IMG/VR virus record: IMGVR_UViG_3300048625_000299
Coordinates: 69,679-133,678 of that record
Length of the DNA stretch: 64,000 nt
Direction: 5' to 3' (one strand)
Origin: a virus
Translations under genes and position numbers: made by a program
Part shown: in pieces, positions 13,769 to 33,150 of the stretch
Position numbering within the stretch: position 1 is the first letter of the stretch
Layout: every line of letters begins with the position of its first letter
The notes under the pieces: generated by a model
What the model was told of the DNA's origin: nothing
What the model saw: only the letters and a program-made list of their open reading frames with translations
Database searches by the model: none

Positions 13769-14305
13769 ATGATCGACGCAGTTTATGTTCTTGGTAAGAT
13801 GGGCTTGAAGCCTGGTATGTCTGTTTCACGCGCAATCACGGCTGTCGGGATTGCAATTAATGACAGTTCCGACCAGTTGAAAGCAGCAAACCGAATCATT
13901 GTATCACTTGGTGCGAAGCCAGTCAGCAATACAATCATGGCCGACATCTTTGCCAAGGCATTAGTGGAACAGGCCGTTGTCCAAGGTGCTAGCTATGATG
14001 CTGACGATGCATTTGAGGTTGCGAATGCAAAGTATCTCAAAATCGAACGGACAATGCCATTCGTGTTCGCAGGTAGCGGTGAAAGCACCACGCCAGTATA
14101 TGGCACGCCTGTTGGAAATGGTGGCACTAAGAAGCCAAAACAAACAAACGACAAGAAGACACAAGCTCTTGAAATTTTCAATCGCGAGACCAGTAAGGGG
14201 TTGCCTAATTCCACAATTGCGCAGACAATTGCTACTGAGTTAGAAATCACACTGTCCAACGCCCAATACTACGTCAATCGTGTATTCGTAAAGTACTCCA
14301 AATGA
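13769..14305 (+). CDS. Hypothetical protein whose C-terminal ~45 aa is paralogous to the 8783-8947 product
   Basis: ORF track. Shared C-terminal motif ITLxNAQYYVxRVF. Confidence 0.55.
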   Translation: MIDAVYVLGKMGLKPGMSVSRAITAVGIAINDSSDQLKAANRIIVSLGAKPVSNTIMADIFAKALVEQAVVQGASYDADDAFEVANAKYLKIERTMPFVFAGSGESTTPVYGTPVGNGGTKKPKQTNDKKTQALEIFNRETSKGLPNSTIAQTIATELEITLSNAQYYVNRVFVKYSK

Positions 14306-17730: not shown

Positions 17731-18750
17731 ATGTCAAAAAAATACGACACTCTCGTCCTCATCGGACGCTTTCAACCGTTTCATAACGCTCACCTTGAGA
17801 TCATCAAGCGTAGCACTGCGCTCTGTAATAAACTGATTGTTATTACGGGCAGCGCAAAACAGCCTCGCACATACAAGAATCCGTTCACCAGCTTTGAACG
17901 CGAGATGATGATCAAGCGTGCGACTGCAGGTCTCGCATTGACTATCAATGTCGTCGAAAACATCGACACAATCTACAACGACCAAGCCTGGGCTGTCCGG
18001 ATACAATCCATCGTGAACACATTGGCATGCGACGGTGATAAGATCGGCATCATCGGCCACAAGAAAGATGACAGCTCATTCTACTTGGATATGTTTCCGC
18101 AATGGGGATATGAGAACGTCGAAGAGATTGCACCGCTGAGTGCTGTCAATATTCGCGACCTGTACTTCAAGCGCAACTGTAATCTCGAATTCATTCGCGG
18201 GGTGGTACCTCAAACTACTTTCGAAATCTTGCTGGACTTCAAGCAAAGCGAAGAGTATGAACAAATCATCCGTGAGCGCGAGTTCGTAGAGAACTACAAA
18301 AAGCAGTACGCATCGCTTCCATATCCTCCAATCTTCAGTACTGCTGATGCTGTAGTGATCCAATCCGGCCATGTGCTGATGATTCGTCGTCGTGCTGAGC
18401 CAGGCAAAGGGTTGTGGGCGCTTCCCGGCGGATATGTGAACGCAAATACCGACAAGTCTGTTGAAGCTGCAATGCTCCGAGAGCTCCGCGAAGAAACAAA
18501 GATCAAAGTTCCCGAGCCAGTCCTGCGTGGTAATATCGTTCGCAGTAAGGTGTTCGATGCTGTCGATCGTAGTCCTCGTGGCCGCATTATCACTCATGCA
18601 TTCCACATTCAGTTGCCAGACGGCGAGCTGCCAAAGGTCAAAGGATCTGATGATGCTGAAAAGGCACGTTGGGTTCCGATTGCTGAAGTGAAGAGCGAAG
18701 ACTGCTTCGAAGACCACTTTGAAATTCTCCAACACTTTTTGGGAGCTTAA
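17731..18750 (+). CDS. natV: Bifunctional NMN adenylyltransferase / Nudix (ADP-ribose pyrophosphatase-type) protein, NadM/NatV-like
   Basis: N-terminal LVLIGRFQPFHNAHLEII (HxGH nucleotidyltransferase). C-terminal Nudix box GGYVNANTDKSVEAAMLRELREETKIKV. Confidence 0.85.
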   Translation: MSKKYDTLVLIGRFQPFHNAHLEIIKRSTALCNKLIVITGSAKQPRTYKNPFTSFEREMMIKRATAGLALTINVVENIDTIYNDQAWAVRIQSIVNTLACDGDKIGIIGHKKDDSSFYLDMFPQWGYENVEEIAPLSAVNIRDLYFKRNCNLEFIRGVVPQTTFEILLDFKQSEEYEQIIREREFVENYKKQYASLPYPPIFSTADAVVIQSGHVLMIRRRAEPGKGLWALPGGYVNANTDKSVEAAMLRELREETKIKVPEPVLRGNIVRSKVFDAVDRSPRGRIITHAFHIQLPDGELPKVKGSDDAEKARWVPIAEVKSEDCFEDHFEILQHFLGA

Positions 18751-18751
18751 A

Positions 18752-18904
18752 ATGTCAGACGGACTAGATCGTTCGGGGCTAGAATGGTTCAATGAACGTG
18801 GCTATTGGGTAATCCGAAAGGTCCCCAATACCAAAGACCAATTCTATGTTGCTAGTACAGCAATTCCACCAGACAATGTTCTGAAAATTTATGGGATATT
18901 GTGA
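18752..18904 (+). CDS. Small hypothetical protein (50 aa)
   Basis: ATG 1 nt after the natV stop. Frame from the track. Confidence 0.3.
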   Translation: MSDGLDRSGLEWFNERGYWVIRKVPNTKDQFYVASTAIPPDNVLKIYGIL

Positions 18905-18906
18905 TG

Positions 18907-19071
18907 GGATGGACTGACTGGAATTGGATTAACGTTGCGCTTGTCTTCGTGAATGGAGCAGTAGCGTATGATTGTTTCGCTGATAAGGACGTCGATCGTT
19001 CTTTCGGTGGTTGGGTGAACGTGGTTGCTAGTTCTATGAACACTGCAATGATTGCAATAAAGGTTTTGTAA
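18907..19071 (+). CDS. Small membrane protein (54 aa)
   Basis: GTGATG at 18904. WNWINVALVFVNGAVAY. Below the track cut-off. Confidence 0.3.
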   Translation, partial: GWTDWNWINVALVFVNGAVAYDCFADKDVDRSFGGWVNVVASSMNTAMIAIKVL

Positions 19072-19265
19072 TGGTACGAATTATCGATGCAACACCACAT
19101 CAGAGTGTGGTCAAAAAGAAGGTCTGCCGTCACTGTGGCGTGACGTTGGAGTATGTTCCTAACGACATTCAAGAACGACGAGTTACTGATTATGATGGCA
19201 GTAGCGAGCTGATCAAGTACATCGAGTGTCCTGCTTGCAAAACACACGTTGATGTGAGGTACTAA
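19071..19265 (+). CDS. Small zinc-ribbon protein (CxxC...CxxC)
   Basis: CRHCGVTLEY...CPACKTHV. Confidence 0.45.
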   Translation: MVRIIDATPHQSVVKKKVCRHCGVTLEYVPNDIQERRVTDYDGSSELIKYIECPACKTHVDVRY

Positions 19266-19266
19266 T

Positions 19267-20211
19267 ATGTGGAAAAATGTAAACGTCTTTGAAGATGAAA
19301 AAGAGCACGTTAAGAAGTATGTTTTCGAGAAAGATGACATCGCTATCGAGTCCGTTCTTTATCGTTATCCTACTTACGATGAACGCACTGTTCTCTGCAT
19401 TAGTACCATGTGCGGATGTCCAATGGGCTGTCGCTTTTGTGGAACTGGTGATTATTTTGTTCGTAGCCTTACTGCGGATGAAATTGTAGGCCAAGCTGAA
19501 TACATCCTCGAAACACAAATCGGCGGACTGAATCCTCGTGACATCAAGAAGTTGCAGATCATGGTGATGAGTATGGGCGAGCCTGCTTTGAACAAAGCTC
19601 TGGAAGAAGCATTCGATCGTCTGTATGCAAAGTACCCAAATGCAGCACTGCTGATTAGCTCAAGCGGTCCTAAGGTTAGCTACCAATGGATCATCGAAAT
19701 GAGCAAGCGGATTCCGACTGTCGGTTTGCAATTCAGCATTCACGAGAGTACAGACGAAGCACGCGACAAGTTGATTCCATTCGATAAGAAGTTGAACCTG
19801 CAAGAGATTGCTGATGTTGGCGTTCGCTGGCACTTGGATACTGGCCGTAAGCCATATTTCAACTATTGCGCTCACGAGGGCAACGATAAAGATGAGGACG
19901 TCCAACGACTACTCAAGTTGTACCATCCACGCATCTGGGAAGCGACTGTCTCTGTCATTTGTGAACGCGATGCTCATGCAGAAGCAACGAACGACAAGCA
20001 ACGCAACTTGGCTATTGAATTTGGTAACAAGCTGCTTGCTGAAGGTTACAACGTCCGTGTGTTCGATCCGGCTGGTCAGGATACAATCGGTGGTGGTTGT
20101 GGTCAGTTGTGGTATGTTCAAGACTGGATGAAGGACCATCCAGAGCACGTCAAGCCATCTGTTGGTTGTGGTATGCAAAAGGTCCACACACCAAAAGAAT
20201 GGAACGTATGA
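19267..20211 (+). CDS. Radical SAM enzyme of the RlmN/Cfr methyltransferase family, minimal form lacking the N-terminal RNA-binding extension
   Basis: VLCISTMCGCPMGCRFCGTG aligns with RlmN LCVSSQVGCALECKFCSTA (CxxxCxxC plus the upstream mechanistic Cys). IMVMSMGEPALN matches VVMMGMGEPLLN. ISSSGP matches LSTSG. FSIHESTDEARDKLIPFDKK matches [20 protein letters not shown]. C-terminal GGGCGQL matches AACGQL (the second mechanistic Cys). Confidence 0.75.
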   Translation: MWKNVNVFEDEKEHVKKYVFEKDDIAIESVLYRYPTYDERTVLCISTMCGCPMGCRFCGTGDYFVRSLTADEIVGQAEYILETQIGGLNPRDIKKLQIMVMSMGEPALNKALEEAFDRLYAKYPNAALLISSSGPKVSYQWIIEMSKRIPTVGLQFSIHESTDEARDKLIPFDKKLNLQEIADVGVRWHLDTGRKPYFNYCAHEGNDKDEDVQRLLKLYHPRIWEATVSVICERDAHAEATNDKQRNLAIEFGNKLLAEGYNVRVFDPAGQDTIGGGCGQLWYVQDWMKDHPEHVKPSVGCGMQKVHTPKEWNV

Positions 20212-20999
20212 AGTTTTTGATCCAATACAATCTAATGGCAGAGTCGCAACTCGAAGCAGTTAAGTCTGCAGCTCTGCCATATCCTCACCAGTATGTTGGA
20301 GTGATTCCGTTTTCAAATGAGATCACCGCAGCAGAGGGTGAAGAGATTGTTGGTACCGATTACATTCCATATGGGTCAACGCTGATGTCGACGATTGGCC
20401 TAGATTTGGGATGGAAGGGATTGCACTTCGATCTCGAACAGTTCAATTACGAAGCTGCAGTCGCCAATCGGGATGATATGCTGAATGATGGCGATATTAT
20501 GACTGTCGAAGAGACTATCGATTTCATGCGCGCCAGCACTCAAGAACAATGGTTCATCCGTCCTTCACTCGATCTGAAGCATTTTGCTGGGCAGGTAATC
20601 GAACGCATAGAGTGTGTGAAGTGGTTAACACAAGCACTCGGTTGTTCATCATCTGAGACGAAACGGATGTACAAAGACATGAAGATTGTCGTTGCAACAC
20701 CACAAAACATTCAAGCCGAATGGCGTTGGTTTGTGGTCGGAGGCAAAGTGGTCGATGGGTCAATGTACCGCTCACATGGTCAATTGATCAAGCTGCATGA
20801 GACTGATCCAAAAGTAATCGCTGAAGCACAAACGTTTGCTGATAAGTGGTTGCCAAACCAAAACGTCGTGATGGACTTGGCGCTTGTCGATGATGAATTG
20901 AAGGTAATTGAATTCAACTGTATCAACTGCAGTGGGTTCTACAATCACGATGTTCGTAAAATATTTGATGCACTGTATATGGAGAGTACAAAATGCTAA
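20208..20999 (+). CDS. ATP-grasp family enzyme
   Basis: ATGA-coupled start, chosen because the track's longer start overlaps the upstream gene. AEWRWFVVGGKVVDGSMYR and LKVIEFNCINCSGF resemble the ATP-grasp central and C-terminal motifs. Confidence 0.55.
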   Translation: MKFLIQYNLMAESQLEAVKSAALPYPHQYVGVIPFSNEITAAEGEEIVGTDYIPYGSTLMSTIGLDLGWKGLHFDLEQFNYEAAVANRDDMLNDGDIMTVEETIDFMRASTQEQWFIRPSLDLKHFAGQVIERIECVKWLTQALGCSSSETKRMYKDMKIVVATPQNIQAEWRWFVVGGKVVDGSMYRSHGQLIKLHETDPKVIAEAQTFADKWLPNQNVVMDLALVDDELKVIEFNCINCSGFYNHDVRKIFDALYMESTKC

Positions 21000-21478
21000 A
21001 GCATGTAAAAGGCAACTTACTCGATCTAGCTGAGGCTGGTCATTTTGATGTGGTTGTTCAAGGCTGCAATTGCTTCAACGCAATGGGCGGAGGGATCGCA
21101 CGTGAGATTCGCGAGCGCTATCCAGTAGCCGCGGCCGCTGACAATAAGACTGTTAAGGGCGATTACAATAAGCTGGGCAATTGGACCAGCTGCCCAATAA
21201 TTGTCGGAGACTTGGGCTATGTTTCTAGCTTCGTTATCATCAACGCATACACTCAATATAATATGAGCACTGGTCAAGATGTGTTCGAGTATGCAGCGTT
21301 TGAGCTGATCCTCCAAAAGCTACTCTACACGTATGGAGATAAGCGAATTGGATTTCCGTTCATTGGTATGGGCCTTGCCCGTGGTGATAAGCAACGAATC
21401 ATCGGAATGCTTGAATGGTTTGCAGATGAAATTGAGAAGCGTGGCGGTAGTGCAACGCTAGTGGAATTCCAGCCATGA
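20993..21478 (+). CDS. Macro domain protein (ADP-ribose-binding/processing)
   Basis: GCNCFNAMGGGIAREIRERYP (Gly-rich ADP-ribose-binding loop) and FPFIGMGLARG (second Macro loop). Confidence 0.7.
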   Translation: MLKHVKGNLLDLAEAGHFDVVVQGCNCFNAMGGGIAREIRERYPVAAAADNKTVKGDYNKLGNWTSCPIIVGDLGYVSSFVIINAYTQYNMSTGQDVFEYAAFELILQKLLYTYGDKRIGFPFIGMGLARGDKQRIIGMLEWFADEIEKRGGSATLVEFQP

Positions 21479-21972
21479 ACATAGTCAAGTCCCCAAACGA
21501 GTATACCACTCGCAATAAATTCTCAATCTTCCTTGCTGGATCAATTGAGATGGGCATGGCGGTAGATTGGCAACAATCGATCGCTGATGCGTTGTATGGC
21601 ATTGATGGAATACAGCTACTGAACCCACGTCGTGATGATTGGGATTCTAGCTGGGCACAAACGATCGAGAATCCACAATTTGCTGAGCAAGTAAGATGGG
21701 AGCTGACAGCACTCGAACGATCTGATTTGATCATCTACTACTTTGCACCAGGCACACAAAGTCCAATCTCGTTGCTTGAGCTGGGACTCTATGCAAACCA
21801 TACAAAGAACATCTGGGTGTGTTGTCCAGAAGGATTCTGGCGTAAGGGCAATATCGAGATCGTCTGCCAACGATACATGATTCCATTCTTTGATGATTTA
21901 GATCACATGGTGGACGATCTGAGGTACTATCTTCCGATTTGGACGGAAGATGGATATGAGCAGTTGACATAA
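21475..21972 (+). CDS. Nucleoside 2-deoxyribosyltransferase-like (SLOG/Rossmann) protein
   Basis: SIFLAGSIE...RSDLIIYYFAPGTQSPISLLELGLYANHTKNIWVCC matches the NDT/Rcl-family pattern (Y.AGP ... D.GT.fElG.a...gKpv). ATGA-coupled. Confidence 0.55.
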   Translation: MNIVKSPNEYTTRNKFSIFLAGSIEMGMAVDWQQSIADALYGIDGIQLLNPRRDDWDSSWAQTIENPQFAEQVRWELTALERSDLIIYYFAPGTQSPISLLELGLYANHTKNIWVCCPEGFWRKGNIEIVCQRYMIPFFDDLDHMVDDLRYYLPIWTEDGYEQLT

Positions 21973-21992
21973 CAATGGGGTTATGCTATACT
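21964..21992 (+). promoter_or_regulatory. Consensus sigma70 promoter TTGACA-N17-TGcTATACT upstream of nadV
   Basis: Hexamers read directly. The -35 overlaps the upstream stop codon. Confidence 0.55.
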
Positions 21993-22002
21993 GTAATCAA
22001 GC

Positions 22003-22021
22003 CCTCGCGATAGACGTGAGG
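22003..22021 (+). promoter_or_regulatory. 5'-UTR stem-loop (cctcgcg/cgtgagg with one G-U pair, loop ATAGA), the same loop as the natV hairpin
   Basis: Seen directly. Lies about 10 nt after the -10 hexamer. Confidence 0.45.
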
Positions 22022-22046
22022 CATTTTAACTGTTAAGGAGATTAAC

Positions 22047-23444
22047 ATGAAACTGAGCAAAAACATTCTACTGAACACAGACAGCTACAAAGTGTCAATG
22101 TGGAAGCAATACCCTGTTGGAACAACTGGCGTATTTTCTTACATCGAATCGCGTGGCGGTCGTTATGATCAAACAGTGATGTTTGGTCTGCAAGCGTTCA
22201 TCAAGGAGTACTTACTTGACCCCATTACACAGTCCGACATCGATATCGCCGAAGAGATTCTTCTCGCACACGGAGAGCCATTTAATCGTAGCGGCTGGCA
22301 GTATATCCTCGACAAGCACGACGGATATCTCCCCGTCGTCATCCGAGCAGTCCCCGAGGGTACTGTGGTACCGGTTAAGAATGTCCTCGCAACCATCGAG
22401 AACACAGATCCCAACGTACCGTGGCTGACTACATGGCTCGAGACTCCCTTGCTTCGTGCGATCTGGTATCCAACTACTGTGGCAACACAGAGCTGGTCGA
22501 TTCGCAAAGTGATTTTGGATTATTTGGAGAAGACTGGTGACCCTGCTCTTATCGATTTTAAGTTACACGACTTTGGTGCTCGCGGTGTTAGTTCCCTTGA
22601 GTCCGCTGGCATTGGCGGCGCCGCGCACCTCGTTAATTTCATGGGTACCGATACTGTTACCGGTTTGTTGTATGCTCGTGAGTATTACAACGCTGGTATT
22701 AGTGGGTTTTCAATTCCTGCAGCCGAGCACAGCACAATCACAAGTTGGGGCCGTGACGGAGAAGTCGACGCCTACCGAAACATGCTTACAAATTTCGCTC
22801 GGCCCGGGTCCATTGTTGCAGTCGTTTCCGACAGCTACGATGTATTCAATGCCGCTAGCAAATTGTGGGGAGAAGAGCTCCGTCAGCAAGTGATTGATAG
22901 CGGTGCTACTGTAGTGATTCGTCCTGATAGTGGTGACCCTGTTGAAGTCAACCGCAAGTTGATTGAGATCTTAGGAGAAAAGTTTGGATACACTACAAAC
23001 GCCAAAGGATTCAAAGTCCTCAATAATGTTCGCCTCATCCAGGGGGACGGTGTCAATGAGTTATCCATCCGCAGTATCCTTGGGGCACTCATGGCAATGG
23101 GATGGTCGGCAGATAATATTGCATTCGGTATGGGCGGTGCCTTGCTCCAGCAAGTTGACCGAGATACCCAGAAGTTTGCAATGAAATGTTCTTCTGCGAA
23201 GATCAATGACGTGTGGGTCGATGTACAAAAAGATCCAGTCACTGATAGTGGCAAGAAGTCGAAGGCAGGTCGAGTGACTCTTTGGAAGAGTGGCGGCGAA
23301 TGGATCAGTAGCGTTGAAAAGCCAGCTGGCTGGCACGATAAAGCAACTGGTGAGTTTGTTGAAGTGCTGGAAACAGTATACGCTAACGGAAAGTTGATTA
23401 ACGAATATACATTCGACAACATCCGAGCAAGAGCTCGCAAATAA
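22047..23444 (+). CDS. nadV: Nicotinamide phosphoribosyltransferase (NAMPT/NadV)
   Basis: HDFGARGVSSLESAGIGGAAHLVNFMGTDTV is the NAMPT signature. 465 aa, typical length. Confidence 0.85.
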   Translation: MKLSKNILLNTDSYKVSMWKQYPVGTTGVFSYIESRGGRYDQTVMFGLQAFIKEYLLDPITQSDIDIAEEILLAHGEPFNRSGWQYILDKHDGYLPVVIRAVPEGTVVPVKNVLATIENTDPNVPWLTTWLETPLLRAIWYPTTVATQSWSIRKVILDYLEKTGDPALIDFKLHDFGARGVSSLESAGIGGAAHLVNFMGTDTVTGLLYAREYYNAGISGFSIPAAEHSTITSWGRDGEVDAYRNMLTNFARPGSIVAVVSDSYDVFNAASKLWGEELRQQVIDSGATVVIRPDSGDPVEVNRKLIEILGEKFGYTTNAKGFKVLNNVRLIQGDGVNELSIRSILGALMAMGWSADNIAFGMGGALLQQVDRDTQKFAMKCSSAKINDVWVDVQKDPVTDSGKKSKAGRVTLWKSGGEWISSVEKPAGWHDKATGEFVEVLETVYANGKLINEYTFDNIRARARK

Positions 23445-24184: not shown

Positions 24185-25225
24185 ATGCGTAAACTTGCAT
24201 CCATTCGTCGGATCGACGAACTGAACCCTATTGAGGGTGCCGACAAAATCGAAGTAGCAACCGTTGGTGGTTGGAAAGTCGTGTGTCAAAAAGGTCTCTA
24301 TAATGTCGGAGATCTTGCTGTGTACTTCGAGATCGACTCGTGGATTCCATCTGCTGTTGCTCCGTTTCTGACAAAGGACGGCCACTTCCCCAAAGTGTTC
24401 GAGGGTGTTGAAGGTGAACGTCTAAAGACAATCCGCTTGCGCGGACAATTGTCTCAAGGTCTGTTGATGCCTATACACAACGACAAGACTGGCACATATT
24501 TGATGGTCTACACAGATGAAACTGGTGAATATTCGCTGACTGTAGCCGAAGGTGATGATGTATCTGAGCCTCTTGGTATCCTGAAATGGGAGAAGGCAAT
24601 CCCTGCTCAGCTCGCTGGCATTTCTCGTGGCAACTTCCCAACTTTGATTCCAAAGACCGACCAAGAGCGTGTGCAAAACTTGAAGAAAGAGATTGCTGCT
24701 GCTCAAGGACAAGTCTACGAAGTGACGGAAAAGCTGGAAGGCTCATCGATGACTTGCTATGTAATTGATGGTGAGTTCGGAGTATGCTCCCGTAACCTCA
24801 ACCTCAAGGAAACTGAGGGCAACTCATTCTGGAATGCAGCTCGCGACAATGACCTCGAGCAAAAAATGCTTGCTCGTCAGTACGACTTTGCAATCCAAGG
24901 TGAGTTGATTGGTCCTGGCGTTCAAGGTAATATCTACAAATTGACAAAGCCTGAGTTCTATGTGTTTGACATCTATGATGTTAAGGACGGCGAGTATATG
25001 AATCCAGCTGCACGTCGTCAATTGGTTGAGTCTCTTGGCCTGAAGCATGTACCGATTCTGGACGATATGTATGTCCTTAACGATGATGTAGAACAACTGT
25101 TGACGTTAGCCGAAGGCAAGTCTAGAATGTTTGATACAGAACGAGAAGGCATCGTGTTCAAACAGAATGACGGTGGCATGACGTTCAAAGCGATCTCGAA
25201 CAAGTACCTATTAAACGAGAAGTGA
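24185..25225 (+). CDS. ATP-dependent RNA ligase, Rnl2/Rnl5-like (nick-sealing type with an N-terminal OB-like domain)
   Basis: Motif I TEKLEGSS (cf. T4 Rnl2 EKIHGTN), motif IV EGIVFKQ, motif V FKAISNKYL. The N-terminal ~70 aa resembles the OB module of Rnl5-type ligases. SD aaggaaagaaaATG at 24185. Confidence 0.7.
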   Translation: MRKLASIRRIDELNPIEGADKIEVATVGGWKVVCQKGLYNVGDLAVYFEIDSWIPSAVAPFLTKDGHFPKVFEGVEGERLKTIRLRGQLSQGLLMPIHNDKTGTYLMVYTDETGEYSLTVAEGDDVSEPLGILKWEKAIPAQLAGISRGNFPTLIPKTDQERVQNLKKEIAAAQGQVYEVTEKLEGSSMTCYVIDGEFGVCSRNLNLKETEGNSFWNAARDNDLEQKMLARQYDFAIQGELIGPGVQGNIYKLTKPEFYVFDIYDVKDGEYMNPAARRQLVESLGLKHVPILDDMYVLNDDVEQLLTLAEGKSRMFDTEREGIVFKQNDGGMTFKAISNKYLLNEK

Positions 25226-25245
25226 TTTAAGTTTTCTCCCCTTTG

Positions 25246-25270
25246 CGCCGGCTTGACCGGCGTTCTTTTT
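25246..25270 (+). terminator. Rho-independent terminator
   Basis: cgccgg-cttga-ccggcg followed by ttcttttt. Confidence 0.6.
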
Positions 25271-25624
25271 ATGAACAATCCATTACTATTCATCACAGAC
25301 ATGCTCGCCGCAGCAAAGAAGTCGTTTCAGGCTGCTGTGGAAGAGCGTAAAAAGAGAGAGCTCAATGCTGAGCGCAATCTCATCGCAAAGCATTTCAACA
25401 ACTACTACACATACCGCCACCGGTTCGATACATCAAGTAATGAGCGTTTGGATGGAACTGGGATGTGGGGGTTCACACCATTAAAAGGAAATGCGTGGAT
25501 GTGTCCGACGTGCAATAAAATCCACTTGGCATCAAGCTGTAGTGCATTTTCCGGTTTACAATATCCACATTGCTGTGAGTATAGATCACACCACAGGCTA
25601 TACAACGACATCAGAACGCAATGA
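25271..25624 (+). CDS. Hypothetical Cys-rich protein
   Basis: ATG directly after the terminator T-run. CPTCNKIHLASSC...HCCEY. Confidence 0.45.
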   Translation: MNNPLLFITDMLAAAKKSFQAAVEERKKRELNAERNLIAKHFNNYYTYRHRFDTSSNERLDGTGMWGFTPLKGNAWMCPTCNKIHLASSCSAFSGLQYPHCCEYRSHHRLYNDIRTQ

Positions 25625-26148
25625 CGCCACTATCGGAACACCTCAGACGACGACACTTGGATATTGAGCTCCACCGTCCAGTGATAGACGAGGTGGATAG
25701 AATTGCTACGTTCTATTTGTGGAACCTCAGCGGTGCGATTGTAGGATTCCAGCAATACCGTCCAGAGGGCGAAAAGAAGATCAACAACAATCCCAAAGAA
25801 GGCAAGTACTACACCTATAAGAAGCAACCTACGATTGCAGTATGGGGCGTAGAATCGCTTTACCTCTCACCGCACGTAGTGTTTATTACGGAAGGTGTAT
25901 TCGACGCTGCTAGGCTGACTGAACGAGGATATAGCGCGTTGGCAATGTTGACTAATAATCCAACATCAGACTACCGCAATTGGTTGACATTCTTGAACAG
26001 AACTGTTGTTGCAGTATGTGATAATGATAAGGCTGGCAAGAAGCTAGCAGCATTTGGTGATGTTGCAATCTTCACCGAAGACAAAGACCTTGGTGATAGT
26101 GATGATGAATATGTCACCAACTTGCTATTGCCATACAAATTGGACTAA
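25621..26148 (+). CDS. Standalone Toprim-domain protein
   Basis: VVFITEGVFDA (catalytic Glu) ... VVAVCDNDKAGKK (DxD). ATGA-coupled. Confidence 0.65.
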   Translation: MTPLSEHLRRRHLDIELHRPVIDEVDRIATFYLWNLSGAIVGFQQYRPEGEKKINNNPKEGKYYTYKKQPTIAVWGVESLYLSPHVVFITEGVFDAARLTERGYSALAMLTNNPTSDYRNWLTFLNRTVVAVCDNDKAGKKLAAFGDVAIFTEDKDLGDSDDEYVTNLLLPYKLD

Positions 26149-26156
26149 AGGATAAT

Positions 26157-26723
26157 ATGGTTATGAAAACATTTATTACAAGCGATATCCATTTCGGACA
26201 CAAGAACATTATGAGCTTCTGTCCAGTATCACGTGCTCGCTTCAAGGGCGACGTGGACTACATGAACGCTCAGATCATCCAAGACTGGAACAATATGATT
26301 GGTCCAGACGACTTGGTGTATATCTTGGGCGACGTTGCATTCTGCTCATGGGAGAAGGCTGTTGGCTTCTTGCGTTCGATGAACGGTCGCAAGATTTTGA
26401 TCAAGGGTAACCATGACAGCAAGCTCGTCAAGAGTCCAGAGTTCGTTGCCTGCTTCGAAAGCATTCACGACTACTTGACAATCACATACAATGGCACTCG
26501 AGTGTCGATGTTCCACTATCCAATTGCTGAGTGGGATCAGATGCATCGAGGTGCTGTCCACTTCTATGGTCACTTGCATGGTGGCACTAGCGGATTGGAA
26601 AAGTACCGAGCAATCGATGTTGGTATGGATGGCAATATGTGCTACCCACATGACATGGATGTTGCTGTGGCAACTGCATTGAAAGGTGAAATCAAAAAGC
26701 ACCATGACAAATATGGGAACTAA
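26157..26723 (+). CDS. Calcineurin-like metallophosphoesterase (2',3'-phosphoesterase candidate of an RNA repair Pnkp)
   Basis: DIHFGH, ILGDVAF and KGNHDSK match the metallophosphatase motifs I-III. Confidence 0.75.
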   Translation: MVMKTFITSDIHFGHKNIMSFCPVSRARFKGDVDYMNAQIIQDWNNMIGPDDLVYILGDVAFCSWEKAVGFLRSMNGRKILIKGNHDSKLVKSPEFVACFESIHDYLTITYNGTRVSMFHYPIAEWDQMHRGAVHFYGHLHGGTSGLEKYRAIDVGMDGNMCYPHDMDVAVATALKGEIKKHHDKYGN

Positions 26724-26724
26724 T

Positions 26725-27195
26725 ATGAGCAAATTAAAATGCATTCAATTGGTTGGCGTGCCTGGATCAGGAAAGTCAACGTGGATTAAAACACAAACGA
26801 TGATCGACAACTTCGTTGTTGCGTCTACGGACAACTTTGTTGAGCAGCATGCTGCTAGCGAAGGTAAGACGTATAACGAAGTGTTCAAGGATTACATGCC
26901 GATTGCTGTAAGGTTGATGGCGAATCAGGTGTTAGTTGCGCAAGCGAATAACAAGAACATCATCTGGGATCAGACGTCCATGAGCGTTGCATCTCGTAAG
27001 AAGAAGTTCAACACGATTCCTAACTACGAGCACATCGCTGTTGTGTTCCCTGTTCCTGGTGAGGAAGAGCTGGCACGTCGCTTGGCAAGCCGTCCAGGAA
27101 AGTTGATTCCAGATCACGTTATGAAAAGCATGATCGATAGCTTTGAGATGCCGACCCTCGAAGAAGGGTTCACTGAAGTTCACGTGTTGCTGTAA
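26725..27195 (+). CDS. P-loop polynucleotide 5'-kinase (T4 Pnk kinase-domain-like)
   Basis: IQLVGVPGSGKSTWIK resembles the T4 Pnk N-terminal GCPGSGKST. ATG lies 2 nt after the upstream stop (track start 26686 rejected). Confidence 0.65.
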   Translation: MSKLKCIQLVGVPGSGKSTWIKTQTMIDNFVVASTDNFVEQHAASEGKTYNEVFKDYMPIAVRLMANQVLVAQANNKNIIWDQTSMSVASRKKKFNTIPNYEHIAVVFPVPGEEELARRLASRPGKLIPDHVMKSMIDSFEMPTLEEGFTEVHVLL

Positions 27196-27206
27196 GGAGT
27201 ATTGAA

Positions 27207-27467
27207 ATGGTGGTGTTTCCAAAGGAGTTCGTTGCGATTCGTTATCCAGGATACTTCTGGCACACAGTCGAGAAGCGCTTGTACACGATTAAAGTGTCTG
27301 GCGAACTCCGTCCATTGAAATTCTGCCGTGGTGGTACGTTCTATGGCAAAACAATTGAGCCTGGTTATCGTGTAAGTGTGCAAGGTGTACGTAAGAAAGT
27401 ATCGATGACCTATCTGGGTAGCATTGGCAACTCATGGGTACAACAAGAGATTCCATATGAAAGTTAA
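27207..27467 (+). CDS. Hypothetical protein
   Basis: ORF track. Confidence 0.4.
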   Translation: MVVFPKEFVAIRYPGYFWHTVEKRLYTIKVSGELRPLKFCRGGTFYGKTIEPGYRVSVQGVRKKVSMTYLGSIGNSWVQQEIPYES

Positions 27468-28344
27468 TTCAGCATCACTGAAGAAGTTCGTTGAAGAAAA
27501 TCCAAAGCTGGTATCTCGTCGTCCAGCCGGTGATGGCATCTACGTCCTGAAATACAAAAAGACTGTATTCTATGATGGTCTGTGGAACGATTACTTAGAA
27601 GAGTGTCGTGGTACGATTGTGGATGAAGATTACAACATCGTGTCATACCCATTCACGAAGGTATACAACTATGGCGTAGAAGCGAAGTCCCCTGTACTAG
27701 ATGGCAGTACGAAGATCAAAGCATACCGTAAAGTTAATGGCTTTATGGTCGCTGTAACGTGGCATAAAGACGATATCCTTGTGTCAACTACAGGATCAAC
27801 GGACTCCGATTATGTAAAAATGGCTCGTGAGTTTATCGATCGTGATTTGGATCTATACCGTGCTTGGTGTAAGGAATATTCGACATACACATTCATGTTT
27901 GAATGTGTCCATAAGGATGATCCGCACATCATTCCAGAAGTGGAAGGGATGTATTTGCTAGGACACCGTCCAAAGTTCTTTGGTTCACCAATTGGTGTGT
28001 CTGACGATATGCATAAGGCATTCAACTGCCATTCGGTTGAAGCAATTGAGTGTACGTTAGATACACTACGTTCGTTAGCTAAGACAGTGAAACACGAAGG
28101 GTTTGTATTATATACGTTGGACGGCATGATAGGCTCTAAGATCAAGAGTCCACATTACCTAGTGTCTAAGTTTGTTGCTCGTAATCCACGAACTGACAAA
28201 TTGATGCGTCCAGATGTGAAGAAGTCACTCGATGAGGAGTATTATCCATTAATCGATGCCATCCAAGCGAACATCGATGCGTATACTGCTATGGACGAAC
28301 AGACGCGATTAGCGTGGGTGAGGGAGTTTCTTTCAACTCAATGA
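27457..28344 (+). CDS. ATP-dependent RNA ligase, Rnl1-like
   Basis: Motif I RKVNGFMV (KxNG), motif IV EGFVLYT, motif V GSKIKSPHY. ATG with SD aagaga preferred over the track's TTG at 27424. Confidence 0.65.
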   Translation: MKVNSASLKKFVEENPKLVSRRPAGDGIYVLKYKKTVFYDGLWNDYLEECRGTIVDEDYNIVSYPFTKVYNYGVEAKSPVLDGSTKIKAYRKVNGFMVAVTWHKDDILVSTTGSTDSDYVKMAREFIDRDLDLYRAWCKEYSTYTFMFECVHKDDPHIIPEVEGMYLLGHRPKFFGSPIGVSDDMHKAFNCHSVEAIECTLDTLRSLAKTVKHEGFVLYTLDGMIGSKIKSPHYLVSKFVARNPRTDKLMRPDVKKSLDEEYYPLIDAIQANIDAYTAMDEQTRLAWVREFLSTQ

Positions 28345-28993
28345 GGATTCTTCTAGCAAGAGCGTTTCGCGATGCTTTGCTAGGGGAGCCAAGAATCACG
28401 ATGATGTGTTCGTTGGTCGTCATTGCGATACACCAACCTGCAGCATTAGTGAATCCAGTCTTTGACCCAGTAATATGGGTAAACTCTTTTAACAGAGCAT
28501 AGTTGGTATTTTGAATGAGGGCCAGATGAGCCCTCTTTCCTTTGGGCTCTATAACTTGAACAGTGGGTGCTGCTGCCGCTCTTATTTCTGCATACTTGGT
28601 AGCATGTGCTATTAAGATAGCGATGTCGACTGCTGTAGAAGTGTTCATGCCGAGCCCAGACGGATCGACGAACTTTGTATCATTCATTCCAAGCTGCTTT
28701 GCTTTGAAATTCATCAGATGGATGAATTGTGGTCTGCCATAGATTGCAGCCAACTTCTCGGCGGATTTGTTGTTGCTTTGTACGAGCATTGTGTCGATTA
28801 AGTAGCGATCATCGATGCCAAGTTCGATTGCTATGATTGCTGTCATCAGCTTCGTGATACTAGCTAGCGGACGTTGTGATGATTCATCTTGCTTCGCTAC
28901 TACCCGATTGTGCTTCATATCAAACACAAACACTGACTCCTTAGCGAACGCTGGCGCAGCAAGCAGCAGTAGAGTGAGTAGTAGTTTCTTCAT
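28289..28993 (-). CDS. Secreted low-molecular-weight penicillin-binding-protein-like DD-peptidase (PBP7/PbpG-like, peptidase S11 core)
   Basis: Signal peptide MKKLLLTLLLLAAPAFA. Motifs SITK (SxxK), SNN (SxN) and KTGFT (KTG). Confidence 0.75.
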   Translation of the reverse strand: MKKLLLTLLLLAAPAFAKESVFVFDMKHNRVVAKQDESSQRPLASITKLMTAIIAIELGIDDRYLIDTMLVQSNNKSAEKLAAIYGRPQFIHLMNFKAKQLGMNDTKFVDPSGLGMNTSTAVDIAILIAHATKYAEIRAAAAPTVQVIEPKGKRAHLALIQNTNYALLKEFTHITGSKTGFTNAAGWCIAMTTNEHIIVILGSPSKASRNALARRILIELKETPSPTLIASVRP

Positions 28994-31606: not shown

Positions 31607-32398
31607 ATGAAACGCATTTTTATTTTGGCTACGATTTTGTTCGGGATGTTCCTGACAGGTTGTACACGTATCGAAACTGGTACAGTCGGCTTGCGTGTCG
31701 ATATGTCACGCCAGATTCAAGGCAACGAGCTGCAGCCTGGCACTTGGAACCAAACATTGATCGGTAGTGTGCTTGAATTTCAAGTACGATCGATTCCAAC
31801 AGGTTGGGAAAACCTAACCCCACAAACTGCAGACAACTCTACATTGAAAGATTTCGACGTCAACATTGTGTATGAGATCAATCCATCATCTGTCTCTGAA
31901 TTGTGGACTACACAATCACGAAGCTTTCACACATATGAGCATGGCGATTATATGTTGATGCGCAATTATATGTCTCAAGTACTGAGCTCTGCTGCAGCTA
32001 AAGCTGTCCGCAAGTACAAAGCATTGGAAGTTGCTGACAATCGTGAGAACATCGAGAAGTCGATTCACGACATCATGGTCAACATGCTAACGGAAGAAAA
32101 GCTCGAGAAAGCTCTTACTATTAGTCAGGTTCGTGTGACGAGCGCAACGCCAGCTGATGACATTGTGGCATCTGCTAATAACGCTGTCCGTGCTCAGAAC
32201 GACTTGAAGACAAAGCAAGTTGAAGTACAGATCGCTCAACAAGAAGCGATTCGTATCCAGACTCTGAACAGCAATTCGCAAGCTATTCCATACATGAACG
32301 CAATGGCTCAGATGGAAATCGCTAAAGCTATCCGTGAAGGAAAGGTACACACAATCGTCGTACCTCAAGACTTCAAGGGTATCGTGAACGTCAAGTAA
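31607..32398 (+). CDS. SPFH/band-7 (stomatin/prohibitin-like) lipoprotein
   Basis: Lipobox FLTGC. GTVGLRVDMSR...TADNSTLKDFDVNIVYEI matches the SPFH core (TkDn..v.vd..v.y.i). C-terminal coiled coil. Confidence 0.6.
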   Translation: MKRIFILATILFGMFLTGCTRIETGTVGLRVDMSRQIQGNELQPGTWNQTLIGSVLEFQVRSIPTGWENLTPQTADNSTLKDFDVNIVYEINPSSVSELWTTQSRSFHTYEHGDYMLMRNYMSQVLSSAAAKAVRKYKALEVADNRENIEKSIHDIMVNMLTEEKLEKALTISQVRVTSATPADDIVASANNAVRAQNDLKTKQVEVQIAQQEAIRIQTLNSNSQAIPYMNAMAQMEIAKAIREGKVHTIVVPQDFKGIVNVK

Positions 32399-32415
32399 AC
32401 AACAACGAGGTCGAT

Positions 32416-33150
32416 ATGAATCAAAATGTATTCCGTGCGGTATTTGGTCTGGGGGCAGTTGCAATTCTTGCAATCCTTGCTCCAATCATCTGGGCCGCGG
32501 CAAGCGCTGGCGTTGGACTGATTGCACTCGGTGTTATCGGCCTCGTTGGTATGGGCTTCATCCAAGCAATCCCATTGTTTGGACAGAAGATTGAAAACCG
32601 AATCCTTAAAGCTCGCAAGGCTGAGGCTCGTGAGAATCCGATCGAACAGTTACAAAACTTCTTGCGCCAAAAGGCTCAACAGGTTGCAGACTTTAAAACT
32701 GCAGTGACGTCGATTAACGCTCAGATCAAATCGTTGCAAGACATGGTTGCGCAGCGTAAGAAGGAACGTCCTGGATATGACGCATCTGCTCAAGAGAAGT
32801 CAATCCAAGCGATGATCGAAGCATACAATGCATTGAAACAAAAGTACGTTAACGCTGAGAATGCTCTTGCTGAATTGAAGATTGCAATTCAGGATAAGGA
32901 ATTTGAATGGAAGTTTAGCCAAGCTGGCCAAGCAGCAATGCAAAGCCTGAGTGCTTCGTCCGGTAAGGACTTGATGGAAGCGATGTTGGCAGACGAAGCA
33001 TTGAGCTCTGTGACGTCTAACTTCAACCAAGTATTCGCTGAATTAGAAATGGAAGCGCAAAACTTGACCAGTGCAAAGCAACTGAGCTTTGATTCTGGAA
33101 TGACGATCGATGTATCCGCAATTAACCTGTCAGCAAAGGTGCCAGCATGA
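32416..33150 (+). CDS. Inner-membrane protein (two N-terminal TM helices) with a long coiled-coil domain
   Basis: AVFGLGAVAILAILAPIIWAAASAGVGLIALGVIGLVGMGFIQAI, then heptad-rich sequence. Confidence 0.55.
   Translation: MNQNVFRAVFGLGAVAILAILAPIIWAAASAGVGLIALGVIGLVGMGFIQAIPLFGQKIENRILKARKAEARENPIEQLQNFLRQKAQQVADFKTAVTSINAQIKSLQDMVAQRKKERPGYDASAQEKSIQAMIEAYNALKQKYVNAENALAELKIAIQDKEFEWKFSQAGQAAMQSLSASSGKDLMEAMLADEALSSVTSNFNQVFAELEMEAQNLTSAKQLSFDSGMTIDVSAINLSAKVPA

What the first reader, a model, noticed from the sequence alone, without database searches (positions are those of the whole stretch)
24185..28344. Expanded RNA healing-and-sealing module: Rnl5-like ligase, standalone Toprim, metallophosphoesterase, P-loop kinase and Rnl1-like ligase in one run
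T4 counters anticodon nucleases with Pnk (a kinase fused to a HAD phosphatase) plus Rnl1. Here the end-healing functions are split into a calcineurin-type phosphoesterase (26157-26723) and a separate P-loop kinase (26725-27195). This composition resembles bacterial and Clostridium Pnkp rather than T4 Pnk. The split pair is flanked by two different ATP-dependent RNA ligases. An unexplained standalone Toprim protein (25621-26148) with a Cys-rich ORF just upstream sits between the first ligase and the phosphoesterase. The assortment suggests repair of a broader range of RNA breaks (for example PrrC-, RloC- or colicin-like tRNA cleavage) than in T4. The Toprim component is unprecedented in such modules as far as I know.
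Basis: partly seen in the sequence, partly recalled or inferred. Interest (0 to 1): 0.65.

Follow-up and report, generated by a model that had tools for sequence, protein, structure and literature searches.

The report
Phage RNA-repair cassette with primase-like enzyme
A large uncultured phage carries a cluster of RNA end-healing and RNA-joining enzymes, and the odd gene among them is a stripped-down DNA-primase core that in many unrelated phages sits beside, or is fused to, enzymes that mend transfer RNAs, which suggests an undescribed step in viral tRNA repair.

Summary
Window 24185-28344 carries, on the + strand, an Rnl5 RNA ligase, a small Cys-rich gene, a 175-aa Toprim protein, a metallophosphoesterase (MPE), a Pnk-like P-loop kinase, an 86-aa ORF and a short Rnl1-like ligase. 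All are under purifying selection, and a 196-kb relative has the same order.

The RNA healing-and-sealing reading is supported by family classification, but the MPE + kinase + Rnl1 triad is common in cultured phages, so that part is ordinary.

The Toprim protein is not OLD-, topoisomerase- or RNase M5-like. It is a complete minimal DnaG/T7-type primase catalytic core with no zinc-binding or helicase-binding domain, from a phage-specific family that includes T5.076.

Across Toprim clades down to about 39% identity this family lies next to tRNA arrays, CCA-adding enzymes, Rnl5/Rnl1, kinase and MPE genes. It is fused to full CCA-adding enzymes in both orders and to a Pnk-type HAD phosphatase. T5 and one metagenomic phage also carry a separate canonical primase.

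My best reading is a tRNA/RNA repair cassette with a primase-derived enzyme acting on RNA ends; whether it polymerises or cleaves is unresolved. I found no paper describing this link.

The parts
24185..25225 (+). Rnl5-type ATP-dependent RNA ligase: N-terminal OB fold plus C-terminal nucleotidyltransferase, with the motif I Lys in KLEGSS
   Evidence: Pfam PF21189 and PF09414. phrog_968 2.8e-96. 5cot NgrRnl E 9.4e-85 over residues 1-344. TIGR02306 189 bits, above the 151 cut-off.
25245..25272 (+). Terminator-like hairpin (GCGCCGG-CTTGA-CCGGCGT) followed by a T-run, immediately after the Rnl5 stop codon
   Evidence: Consensus scan. The sequence is identical in three relatives. Function is inferred only.
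25271..25624 (+). Cys-rich 117-aa protein with the invariant motif WMCPxCNKIH...CC, probably zinc-binding. Function unknown. It is not a conserved partner of the Toprim gene.
   Evidence: Codon differences 11 synonymous: 1 non-synonymous against L005. Small family of 13 clusters. Invariant Cys and His residues. Found elsewhere next to Band_7 or in anti-defence islands. AF2 pLDDT 85 with no PDB fold match.
25621..26148 (+). Standalone DnaG/T7-type primase catalytic core (N-terminal subdomain plus Toprim fold), lacking the zinc-binding and helicase-binding domains. It belongs to the T5.076 family. Metal ligands are E91, D95, D134, D136 and D156.
26157..26723 (+). Calcineurin-type metallophosphoesterase of the aq_1665-like subfamily. 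It is the candidate 2',3'-cyclic-phosphate / 3'-phosphate end-healing enzyme.
   Evidence: phrog_547 3.6e-50. Profile against PDB: 1xm7 6.5e-25, no Mre11/SbcD or Pnkp hit. DxH, GD, GNH, H and GHxH motifs are invariant. The end-healing role is inferred from linkage to kinase and ligase genes.
26725..27195 (+). Pnk-like P-loop kinase (AAA_33), the candidate RNA 5'-OH kinase
   Evidence: AAA_33 7.6e-18. phrog_505 'polynucleotide kinase' 2.3e-11. Pnkp1 4xrp 1.7e-6 and T4 Pnk 1ly1 3.3e-4, with the P-loop, catalytic Asp (STDNF vs NRDDY) and lid Arg aligned. Weak NCBIfam hits to bacterial Pnkp and PNK-3'Pase.
27207..27467 (+). 86-aa ORF of unknown function, restricted to the closest relatives
   Evidence: No family hits. 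Codon differences 16 synonymous: 2 non-synonymous against relatives. Found only in L005, L006 and L012.
27457..28344 (+). Short Rnl1-like ATP-dependent RNA ligase (295 aa), with motif I in KVNG, motif IV in EGFVLY and motif V in KIKS. It does not cover the C-terminal ~80 profile positions of the T4 Rnl1 family.
   Evidence: PF09511 45.5 bits against GA 28.3. phrog_562 5.8e-47, profile positions 26-297 of 377. 675 phage records carry homologs annotated as RNA ligase. No PDB hit by single-sequence search.

Best explanation
This is a counter-defence RNA (chiefly tRNA) repair cassette of a large uncultured phage. It lies directly downstream of an NAD+ salvage pair.

Inferred pathway:
1. The metallophosphoesterase removes 2',3'-cyclic or 3'-phosphates.
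2. The Pnk-like kinase phosphorylates 5'-OH ends left by metal-independent tRNA nucleases.
3. The short Rnl1-like ligase seals the healed breaks.
4. The Rnl5 ligase, which may be transcribed separately, seals 3'-OH/5'-phosphate nicks in duplex RNA. Such nicks are left in tRNA stems by metal-dependent (Toprim-type) nucleases.

The Toprim protein is a primase catalytic core that has lost its zinc-binding and helicase-binding domains. It belongs to a phage-specific family (T5.076-like) whose members recurrently travel with tRNA gene arrays, CCA-adding enzymes and healing/sealing enzymes, and are sometimes fused to them.

I therefore propose that it works on RNA ends in the same pathway, not in DNA replication. 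Most likely it performs a metal-dependent nucleotidyl-transfer step that restores nucleotides lost from a damaged tRNA end before CCA addition or ligation. Alternatively it trims the end.

Shown here: the gene content, the family assignments, the fold, conservation of the catalytic residues, the linkage and the fusions. Inferred: every enzymatic activity and every substrate.
For: Family assignments.

Toprim fold and catalytic residues:
- The fold is a primase RNA-polymerase domain over 150-164 of 175 residues.
- All five T7/DnaG metal ligands align.
- E91, Y63 and G42 are invariant in 145 family members, [KR]62 is present in 143, and D134/D136/D156 in 128-137.

Linkage across divergent Toprim clades:
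- T5.076 sits inside the T5 tRNA cluster.
- The Vibrio phage eugene gene overlaps the tRNA nucleotidyltransferase gene, with MPE and ATPase genes upstream.
- L157: CCA enzyme then Toprim, 4 bp apart.
- L115: CCA gene overlaps the Toprim gene.
- L123: 22 tRNAs, then Toprim, MPE, CCA, kinase.
- L219: Rnl5, kinase, Toprim.
- L225 and L057: MPE next to Toprim.
- A CCA enzyme lies within 5 kb in 7 independent 60%-identity clusters.

Fusions:
- Toprim plus a complete CCA-adding enzyme in both orders: P0157, P0226, P0185/P0285.
- Toprim plus a Pnk-type HAD phosphatase: P0174, seen as three sequences on several contigs.

The family is not the replicative primase:
- T5 has a separate pri gene next to its DnaB-like helicase.
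- L215 has a canonical DNAG_N+Toprim primase as well as the small Toprim.

Control: 1 of 80 PhoH-anchored loci have such neighbours, against 47 of 74 Toprim-anchored loci.

The family is phage-specific: only 5 hits, all on MAG contigs, in 185,579 species genomes.

P2 OLD, a Toprim nuclease, leaves 5'-phosphate/3'-OH ends in tRNA stems, and single nicks there are sealed by RNA ligases (PMC12445682).
Against: - No activity has been measured for any of these proteins or their close homologs.
- The MPE's nearest solved relative has no known function.
- The window has no tRNA gene and no CCA-adding enzyme.
- Many Toprim loci have no repair or tRNA neighbour within 5-8 kb: 30 of 48 clusters, and L008 and L009.
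- Some homologs lie beside replication-type genes: pf16 after SSB, SYP near DNA ligase.
- One clade has members with an N-terminal zinc-finger domain (P0261), as a real primase would.
- Some fusions (GNAT, Arr-like, ParB, Mom) look like polyvalent proteins, in which Iyer et al. 2017 read Toprim as a primase (PMC5512222).
- Within the window's own lineage, synteny could reflect common descent rather than function.
- A terminator-like hairpin separates Rnl5 from the other genes.
Confidence: 0.55

Rival explanations
1. The Toprim protein is an accessory or early DNA primase, or a primase subunit that borrows a zinc-binding partner. It would prime phage DNA synthesis. Its position among RNA-repair genes would only reflect the habit of large phages of pooling non-essential early genes in one region.
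For: - The fold and all catalytic residues are those of DnaG/T7 primases.
- PHROG and RefSeq call it 'DNA primase'.
- The pf16 homolog follows the SSB gene, and the SYP homolog lies near DNA ligase.
- P0261 has an N-terminal zinc-finger domain.
- Toprim_2/3/4 domains in polyvalent proteins are interpreted as primases (PMC5512222).
Against: - There is no zinc-binding or helicase-binding domain.
- The upstream Cys-rich ORF is not a conserved partner and has no primase-like fold.
- T5 and L215 already have canonical primases.
- Fusions to CCA-adding enzymes in both orders and to a Pnk-type HAD phosphatase are hard to explain for a replication primase.
- Linkage to tRNA and repair genes recurs across clades with shuffled gene orders.
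Confidence: 0.2
2. The Toprim protein is a ribonuclease, as RNase M5, OLD and AriB are Toprim nucleases. It would mature phage tRNA precursors, for example by cutting 3' trailers ahead of CCA addition, or degrade host tRNAs. It would not repair damage.
For: - It sits inside or beside tRNA arrays in T5, L123, L074 and L151.
- Fusion or adjacency to CCA-adding enzymes fits a trim-then-add pathway.
- Toprim nucleases that cut RNA are well documented (PMC12445682; RNase M5 Toprim).
Against: - In this window and its closest relatives there is no tRNA gene nearby, yet the gene stays with the kinase, MPE and ligases.
- It is linked to Rnl5 and kinase genes in loci with no tRNA genes detected in the fetched flanks (L219).
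Confidence: 0.17
3. The kinase and phosphoesterase serve the neighbouring NAD+/nucleotide counter-defence genes rather than RNA repair. Examples would be a nicotinamide-riboside or nucleoside kinase and a phosphodiesterase that destroys cyclic-nucleotide immune signals. The ligases would then be independent.
For: - NAMPT and NMNAT-Nudix lie just upstream, and the same adjacency is seen in Vibrio phage Achelous.
- The kinase hits to Pnk-type proteins are weak (E 1.7e-6 at best).
- The MPE subfamily has no characterised member.
- P-loop kinase fusions to NMNAT are known in phages (PMC7824862).
Against: - MPE, kinase and Rnl1 stay tightly packed, often overlapping, in many loci with no NAMPT gene detected in the fetched flanks.
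- The kinase aligns with the catalytic Asp and lid Arg of T4 Pnk and Pnkp1.
- Its PHROG relatives include 'polynucleotide kinase' and an RNA ligase fusion family.
Confidence: 0.08

Closest known systems
Phage T4 tRNA repair (Pnk + Rnl1, with Rnl2)
   Same: It uses the same logic: heal the 3' and 5' ends, then seal with an Rnl1-family ligase. The kinase aligns with T4 Pnk over the P-loop, catalytic Asp and lid Arg. The ligase passes the Pfam Rnl1 threshold.
   Different: - The 3' healing enzyme is a separate calcineurin-type MPE, not a HAD domain fused to the kinase.
- The Rnl1-like ligase is short and does not cover the C-terminal part of the T4 family profile.
- The second ligase is Rnl5, not Rnl2.
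- There is an extra primase-like gene.
Bacterial Pnkp/Hen1 and Pnkp1-Rnl-Hen1 RNA repair systems
   Same: They also combine a P-loop polynucleotide kinase, a metallophosphoesterase and an ATP-dependent ligase. The best solved match of the kinase is Pnkp1 (4xrp).
   Different: - Here the three activities are separate small proteins.
- No Hen1 methyltransferase was seen.
- The MPE is of the aq_1665 type and shows no detectable relationship to the Pnkp phosphatase.
Rnl5 ligases (Naegleria NgrRnl, Deinococcus DraRnl)
   Same: Full-length homology with the same N-terminal OB plus NTase architecture.
   Different: The window copy has a roughly 13-residue insertion between the two domains relative to NgrRnl. 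That segment is replaced in the closest relative. Its substrate in the phage context is unknown.
DnaG / T7 gp4 / T4 gp61 primase RNA-polymerase domain, including phage T5 pri (T5.121)
   Different: - No zinc-binding domain and no helicase-binding domain.
- 175 aa in total.
- It occurs as an extra copy in phages that have a canonical primase.
- Its genomic partners are tRNA and RNA-repair genes rather than helicase and polymerase genes.
RNA-ligase-associated nucleotide-restoring enzymes (RlaP Pol-beta NTase, CCA-adding enzyme, Thg1) as described for phages by Iyer et al. 2021 (PMC7824862)
   Same: It fills the same genomic niche: a putative nucleotidyl-transfer enzyme encoded beside RNA ligases and end-healing enzymes. 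It is directly fused or adjacent to CCA-adding enzymes.
   Different: The fold is unrelated (Toprim/primase rather than Pol-beta or Thg1 palm). No activity has been shown. It is not listed among phage RNA-repair components in that survey.
Toprim ribonucleases (RNase M5; OLD/AriB tRNA nucleases) and archaeal exosome-associated DnaG (the latter from my own knowledge)
   Same: They show that Toprim proteins can act on RNA, tRNA included.

Membership tests
Rnl5 RNA ligase (DraRnl/NgrRnl) | N-terminal OB domain followed by an NTase domain, with full-length similarity to the prototype | tested here: met
   PF21189 plus PF09414. 5cot E 9.4e-85 over residues 1-344.
Rnl5 RNA ligase (DraRnl/NgrRnl) | Score above the curated equivalog cut-off (TIGR02306) | tested here: met
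   189.3 bits against a cut-off of 151.15.
Rnl5 RNA ligase (DraRnl/NgrRnl) | Seals 3'-OH/5'-phosphate nicks in duplex RNA | not testable with these tools
   Needs a biochemical assay.
Rnl1 RNA ligase (T4 gp63 type) | Pfam RNA_lig_T4_1 above the gathering score, with nucleotidyltransferase motifs I, IV and V | tested here: met
   45.5 bits against 28.3. KVNG, EGFVLY and KIKS are read directly from the sequence.
Rnl1 RNA ligase (T4 gp63 type) | C-terminal domain that gives T4 Rnl1 its tRNA specificity | tested here: inconclusive
   The match covers phrog_562 positions 26-297 of 377 only, and the protein is 295 aa. No structure comparison was run.
Polynucleotide 5'-kinase (T4 Pnk / bacterial Pnkp kinase domain) | P-loop, catalytic Asp after strand 2, and lid Arg | tested here: met
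   Alignments to 4xrp and 1ly1: GVPGSGKST, STDNF aligned with NRDDY/NRDDF, RLASRPGK aligned with KRNSKRGTK.
Polynucleotide 5'-kinase (T4 Pnk / bacterial Pnkp kinase domain) | Score above a curated family cut-off | tested here: not met
   TIGR04075 scores 28.3 bits against a cut-off of 750. That model covers an 851-residue multidomain protein. TIGR01663 scores 23.2 against 502.8. Only the generic AAA_33 model passes.
Calcineurin-type metallophosphoesterase superfamily | DxH, GD, GNH[DE], H and GHxH metal-binding motifs | tested here: met
   D10, H12, D59, N85, H86, H120, H139 and H141 are invariant in 11 homologs.
Calcineurin-type metallophosphoesterase superfamily | Pfam gathering score | tested here: not met
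   Metallophos_2 scores 25.2 bits against 27. However, phrog_547 gives 3.6e-50 and the profile against 1xm7 gives 6.5e-25.
Pnkp-type (lambda-phosphatase-like) RNA 3' end-healing phosphatase | Detectable sequence relationship to the Pnkp phosphatase domain | tested here: not met
   No such chain was found with the single sequence or with the profile at E<=0.01.
Mre11/SbcD nuclease | Sequence relationship to Mre11/SbcD | tested here: not met
   No Mre11/SbcD hit in PDB, Pfam or NCBIfam.
DnaG-type primase | RNA-polymerase domain fold (N-terminal subdomain plus Toprim) with E, DxD and D metal ligands | tested here: met
DnaG-type primase | N-terminal zinc-binding domain | tested here: not met
   The protein begins with a short helix directly before the N-terminal subdomain. 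T5 pri and T7 gp4 carry about 100 extra N-terminal residues with Cys/His clusters.
DnaG-type primase | Helicase-binding C-terminal domain or fused helicase | tested here: not met
   The protein ends about 20 residues after the last Toprim motif.
DnaG-type primase | Curated equivalog score (TIGR01391) | tested here: not met
   20.5 bits against 283.6.
OLD / topoisomerase / RNase M5 Toprim proteins | Family-specific partner domains (ABC ATPase, topoisomerase domains, RNase M5 C-terminal domain) | tested here: not met

The most novel reading that the evidence does not exclude
A primase catalytic core has been repurposed as an RNA-repair polymerase. Freed of its zinc finger, it would use the intact strand of a tRNA stem (or another RNA) as template to rebuild nucleotides removed from the 3' side by defence nucleases. 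It would then hand the end to the CCA-adding enzyme or to an RNA ligase. This would be a 5'-to-3' counterpart of Thg1-type repair and a new class of RNA-ligase-associated nucleotidyltransferase. It is present in model phage T5 as T5.076.
Probability: 0.25. Interest if true: 0.85.

Novelty: new variant of a known kind. Interest (0 to 1): 0.6.

Why it matters
tRNA cleavage is now recognised as a major anti-phage strategy (PrrC, RloC, PARIS, retron effectors, OLD, Schlafen-type and Cas12a3 nucleases). Phage answers known so far are spare tRNAs, end-healing enzymes, ligases and a few nucleotidyltransferases.

A widespread, phage-specific, primase-derived enzyme that tracks tRNA genes, CCA-adding enzymes and ligases would add a component to that repertoire. 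It would also correct a common annotation, since hundreds of phage records call it 'DNA primase'.

The family is present in T5, so the question is directly testable by genetics and simple biochemistry. The rest of the cassette (MPE + kinase + Rnl1, plus Rnl5) is an ordinary example of a common but biochemically uncharacterised phage module.

Tried and rejected
1. Split primase hypothesis: the Cys-rich ORF as the zinc-binding domain for the Toprim ORF. Rejected.
- The ORFs upstream of Toprim genes in other phages are unrelated.
- Cys-rich homologs occur away from Toprim genes.
- The AF2 model has no primase zinc-ribbon match, or any other match, in the PDB.

2. OLD-, topoisomerase- or RNase M5-type Toprim. 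Rejected on fold and domain content.

3. tRNA genes or known RNA families in the window. None were found.

4. Close DNA relatives among cultured phages. None were found.

5. Searches that led nowhere.
- A single-sequence scan of viral contigs with the Vibrio phage eugene homolog found nothing.
- The key review of RNA repair systems (Burroughs and Aravind 2016) is not held in the library. Whether it mentions this family could not be checked.
- P0174 against the PDB gave no hit.

6. A second Toprim or primase, a CCA enzyme, or a replicative helicase or polymerase in the 64-kb window. None were found. Whether this phage has a canonical primase elsewhere is therefore unknown.

7. Caveat on the neighbourhood counts. 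The iterated Toprim profile may have pulled in a few true primases among the lowest-identity loci (L227-L251). The cluster-level counts are therefore conservative for the family proper.

Full report
**What is there**

The window is an early or accessory region of a large phage with no close DNA relative among 50,697 cultured-phage records. Its nearest relatives are metagenomic contigs, including a 196-kb contig with the same gene order.

Between 24185 and 28344 the + strand carries:
- Rnl5 ligase, 24185-25225
- a terminator-like hairpin, 25245-25263
- a Cys-rich 117-aa gene, 25271-25624
- a 175-aa Toprim protein, 25621-26148
- a metallophosphoesterase (MPE), 26157-26723
- a P-loop kinase, 26725-27195
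- an 86-aa ORF, 27207-27467
- a 295-aa Rnl1-like ligase, 27457-28344

A Peptidase_S11 gene converges on the module from the other strand. Every ORF shows a large excess of synonymous over non-synonymous codon differences against two relatives, so all are real genes. The window contains no tRNA gene and no Rfam family.

**Classification of the healing and sealing enzymes**

- *First ligase.* It is an unambiguous Rnl5. It aligns full length to Naegleria RNA ligase (E 9.4e-85). It has the PHA02142 OB fold plus the RNA_ligase domain. It scores above the curated TIGR02306 cut-off.
- *Kinase.* It hits AAA_33. Its best solved relatives are Pnkp1 of a bacterial RNA repair complex, T4 Pnk, and seryl-tRNA(Sec) kinase. 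The alignments place its P-loop, an Asp equivalent to the T4 Pnk catalytic Asp, and the lid Arg in register. No thymidylate or adenylate kinase model appears.
- *Phosphoesterase.* It has every calcineurin-type metal-binding motif, invariant in homologs. Its nearest solved relative is the uncharacterised Aquifex aq_1665 (profile E 6.5e-25). It has no relationship to Mre11/SbcD or to the Pnkp phosphatase.
- *Last ligase.* It passes the Pfam Rnl1 threshold. It is short, covering profile positions 26-297 of 377 in the T4 gp63 PHROG.

**How unusual the cassette is**

It is not unusual. MPE homologs occur in 1586 cultured-phage records and Rnl1-like homologs in 675. Vibrio phage Achelous has RNA ligase, ATPase and phosphoesterase genes side by side a few kb from NAMPT. 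This mirrors the window, where NMNAT-Nudix and NAMPT lie just upstream. Iyer et al. 2021 already describe phages with several RNA ligases and with calcineurin-like phosphatases in place of HAD domains (PMC7824862). This part is a new member of a known kind.

**What the Toprim protein is**

- By sequence it matches only primase models: phrog_849 at 2.5e-39, and weakly TIGR01391 dnaG. A family profile finds only DnaG chains in the PDB.
- Aligned with T7 gp4 and the T5 replicative primase, it has all five acidic metal ligands and the EGxxD and DxDxAG motifs. It lacks the roughly 100-residue zinc-binding N-terminus, and it ends just after the Toprim fold.
- Across 145 family members, E91, G42 and Y63 are invariant. 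A [KR]-Y pair resembling DnaG's PKY motif is kept in 143. The DxD and final Asp are kept in about 90%.

It is therefore a catalytically intact-looking, minimal primase core.

**Where the family occurs**

It is large and phage-specific.
- It comprises 503 clusters at 50% identity, mostly 170-190 aa standalone proteins.
- It is present in 417 cultured-phage records, dominated by T5-like phages.
- It has only five hits, all on MAG contigs, in 185,579 species genomes.

The T5 member, T5.076, lies inside the T5 tRNA gene cluster. T5's replicative primase (pri, T5.121) sits beside the DnaB-like helicase and the polymerase. A metagenomic phage (L215) likewise carries both a canonical DNAG_N+Toprim primase and the small Toprim. 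The family is therefore an extra paralog, not the replicative primase.

**Linkage to tRNA and RNA-repair genes**

I collected 147 unique Toprim loci, forming 48 clusters at 60% identity. I scored neighbours with profiles built from the window's proteins and from phage CCA-adding enzymes, and scored tRNAs with ARAGORN.

In the window's own clade, 47 of 74 loci have an MPE, kinase, Rnl1, Rnl5, CCA enzyme or tRNA within 5 kb. The usual layout is tRNA array, MPE, kinase, Rnl1, peptidase, Toprim, but with many rearrangements. Of 80 control loci anchored on PhoH from the same lineage, only one has such a neighbour.

The pattern recurs in divergent clades:

| Locus | Toprim identity to window | Arrangement |
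|---|---|---|
| L157 | 61% | CCA enzyme then Toprim, 4 bp apart |
| L115 | 44% | CCA gene overlaps Toprim |
| L224 | 39% | tRNAs, CCA, Toprim, NAMPT |
| L123 | 63% | 22 tRNAs, Toprim, MPE, CCA, kinase |
| L219 | 45% | Rnl5, kinase, Toprim |
| L225 | 47% | MPE then Toprim |
| Vibrio phage eugene | 39% | MPE, ATPase, tRNA nucleotidyltransferase overlapping Toprim |
| Cyanophage B3 | 57% | CCA enzyme 2.7 kb upstream |

A CCA enzyme lies within 5 kb in seven independent clusters.

**Gene fusions**

Fusions give the same message.
- Toprim is fused to a complete CCA-adding enzyme (PolyA_pol head, RNA-binding, HD, tRNA_NucTran2_2) in both orders: P0157, P0226 and P0185/P0285, on several contigs.
- Toprim is fused to a HAD domain that matches the 'polynucleotide kinase' PHROG: P0174, seen as three sequences on several contigs.

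**Counter-evidence**

- Thirty of the 48 clusters show no such neighbour in the 5-8 kb available.
- The pf16 homolog follows SSB, and the SYP homolog lies near DNA ligase.
- One clade includes a member with an N-terminal zinc-finger domain (P0261).
- Some fusions (GNAT, Arr-like, ParB, Mom) look like polyvalent proteins, in which Toprim domains have been read as primases (PMC5512222).

An accessory-primase role therefore remains possible for part or all of the family.

**The Cys-rich ORF**

It is a real gene with an invariant WMCPxCNKIH...CC motif. It is not tied to the Toprim gene. It occurs next to Band_7/SPFH genes or in anti-defence islands elsewhere. Other Toprim genes have unrelated upstream ORFs. 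Its confident model, a long helix plus a small Cys-rich beta domain, matches nothing solved. Its function is unknown.

**Most likely mechanism**

All steps are inferred from family membership and linkage.
1. The MPE and kinase heal 2',3'-cyclic-phosphate and 5'-OH ends made by metal-independent tRNA nucleases.
2. The Rnl1-like ligase seals them.
3. Rnl5 seals 3'-OH/5'-phosphate nicks in duplex RNA. P2 OLD, a Toprim nuclease, leaves such ends in tRNA stems, and RNA ligases can seal single nicks there (PMC12445682).
4. The primase-derived protein acts on RNA ends in the same pathway.

For the primase-derived protein, the retained primase N-terminal subdomain and the partnership with CCA-adding enzymes favour nucleotide addition, that is, restoring lost nucleotides. 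End-trimming nuclease activity is the main alternative.

I put about 0.55 on the overall picture (repair cassette with the Toprim as a functional member), 0.2 on an unrelated accessory primase, and 0.17 on a tRNA maturation or degradation nuclease.

**Novelty and literature**

Full-text searches combining Toprim, DnaG-like or primase with RNA ligase, RNA repair, tRNA repair, CCA-adding, tRNA nucleotidyltransferase and T5 found no paper describing this family or its link to tRNA repair. The 2016 survey of RNA repair systems could not be read, so prior mention there cannot be excluded.

I rate the finding as a new variant of a known kind. The cassette is ordinary. The primase-like component and its cross-phage linkage are the interesting, testable part.

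Noticed in passing
window 17731-23444: An NAD+ salvage and nucleotide island lies directly upstream of the repair genes. It contains NMNAT-Nudix (17731-18750), radical SAM (19267-20211), R2K ATP-grasp (20097-20999), a nucleoside 2-deoxyribosyltransferase-like gene (21475-21972) and NAMPT (22047-23444). A strong sigma-70-like promoter sits at 21964-21992. The same NAMPT / repair-cassette adjacency occurs in Vibrio phage Achelous.
   Followed up: partly
window 24470-24600 (Rnl5 residues ~97-135): The linker between the OB and NTase domains of Rnl5 is an insertion relative to Naegleria RNA ligase. In the otherwise closely related contig L005 it is replaced by an unrelated segment. It looks like a local hypervariable or swapped segment.
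   Followed up: no
window 28289-28993 (- strand): A D-Ala-D-Ala carboxypeptidase (Peptidase_S11) gene with a signal-peptide-like N-terminus converges on the Rnl1-like gene and overlaps it by 56 nt. In many relatives it travels between Rnl1 and the Toprim gene.
   Followed up: partly
window 25271-25624; L169 6001-6327; L171 6001-6327; L011 5905-6255: The Cys-rich family (invariant WMCPxCNKIH...CC) is a mobile small gene. It is found next to Band_7/SPFH genes and in an island with Acb1, YAcAr, NMNAT-Nudix and NAMPT. Its confident AF2 model has no solved structural relative.
   Followed up: partly
alignment A6 (Toprim clade containing P0157 and P0226): In one Toprim clade, the one containing two of the CCA-enzyme fusions, the first Asp of the DxD motif is replaced by Gln (QGD). 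This hints at an altered metal site or activity.
   Followed up: no
L215 231-1286 and 7986-8561: One metagenomic phage locus carries both a canonical DnaG-like primase (DNAG_N + Toprim_2, 352 aa) and the small Toprim, which lies about 750 bp downstream of a CCA-adding enzyme gene.
   Followed up: yes
window 31607-33150 and 34683-35639: A Band_7/SPFH gene and a following 244-aa ORF lie downstream of the module. The homolog of 34683-35639 in relative L005 carries a precomputed Pfam Gad2 (anti-Gabija) hit. My own Pfam scan of the window copy did not reproduce it at E<=1e-5.
   Followed up: no
window 7233-8718 and 14302-15642: PhoH-like ATPase, two exonucleases and an ATP-dependent DNA ligase lie upstream. 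No polymerase, helicase or canonical primase is present anywhere in the 64-kb window.
   Followed up: partly
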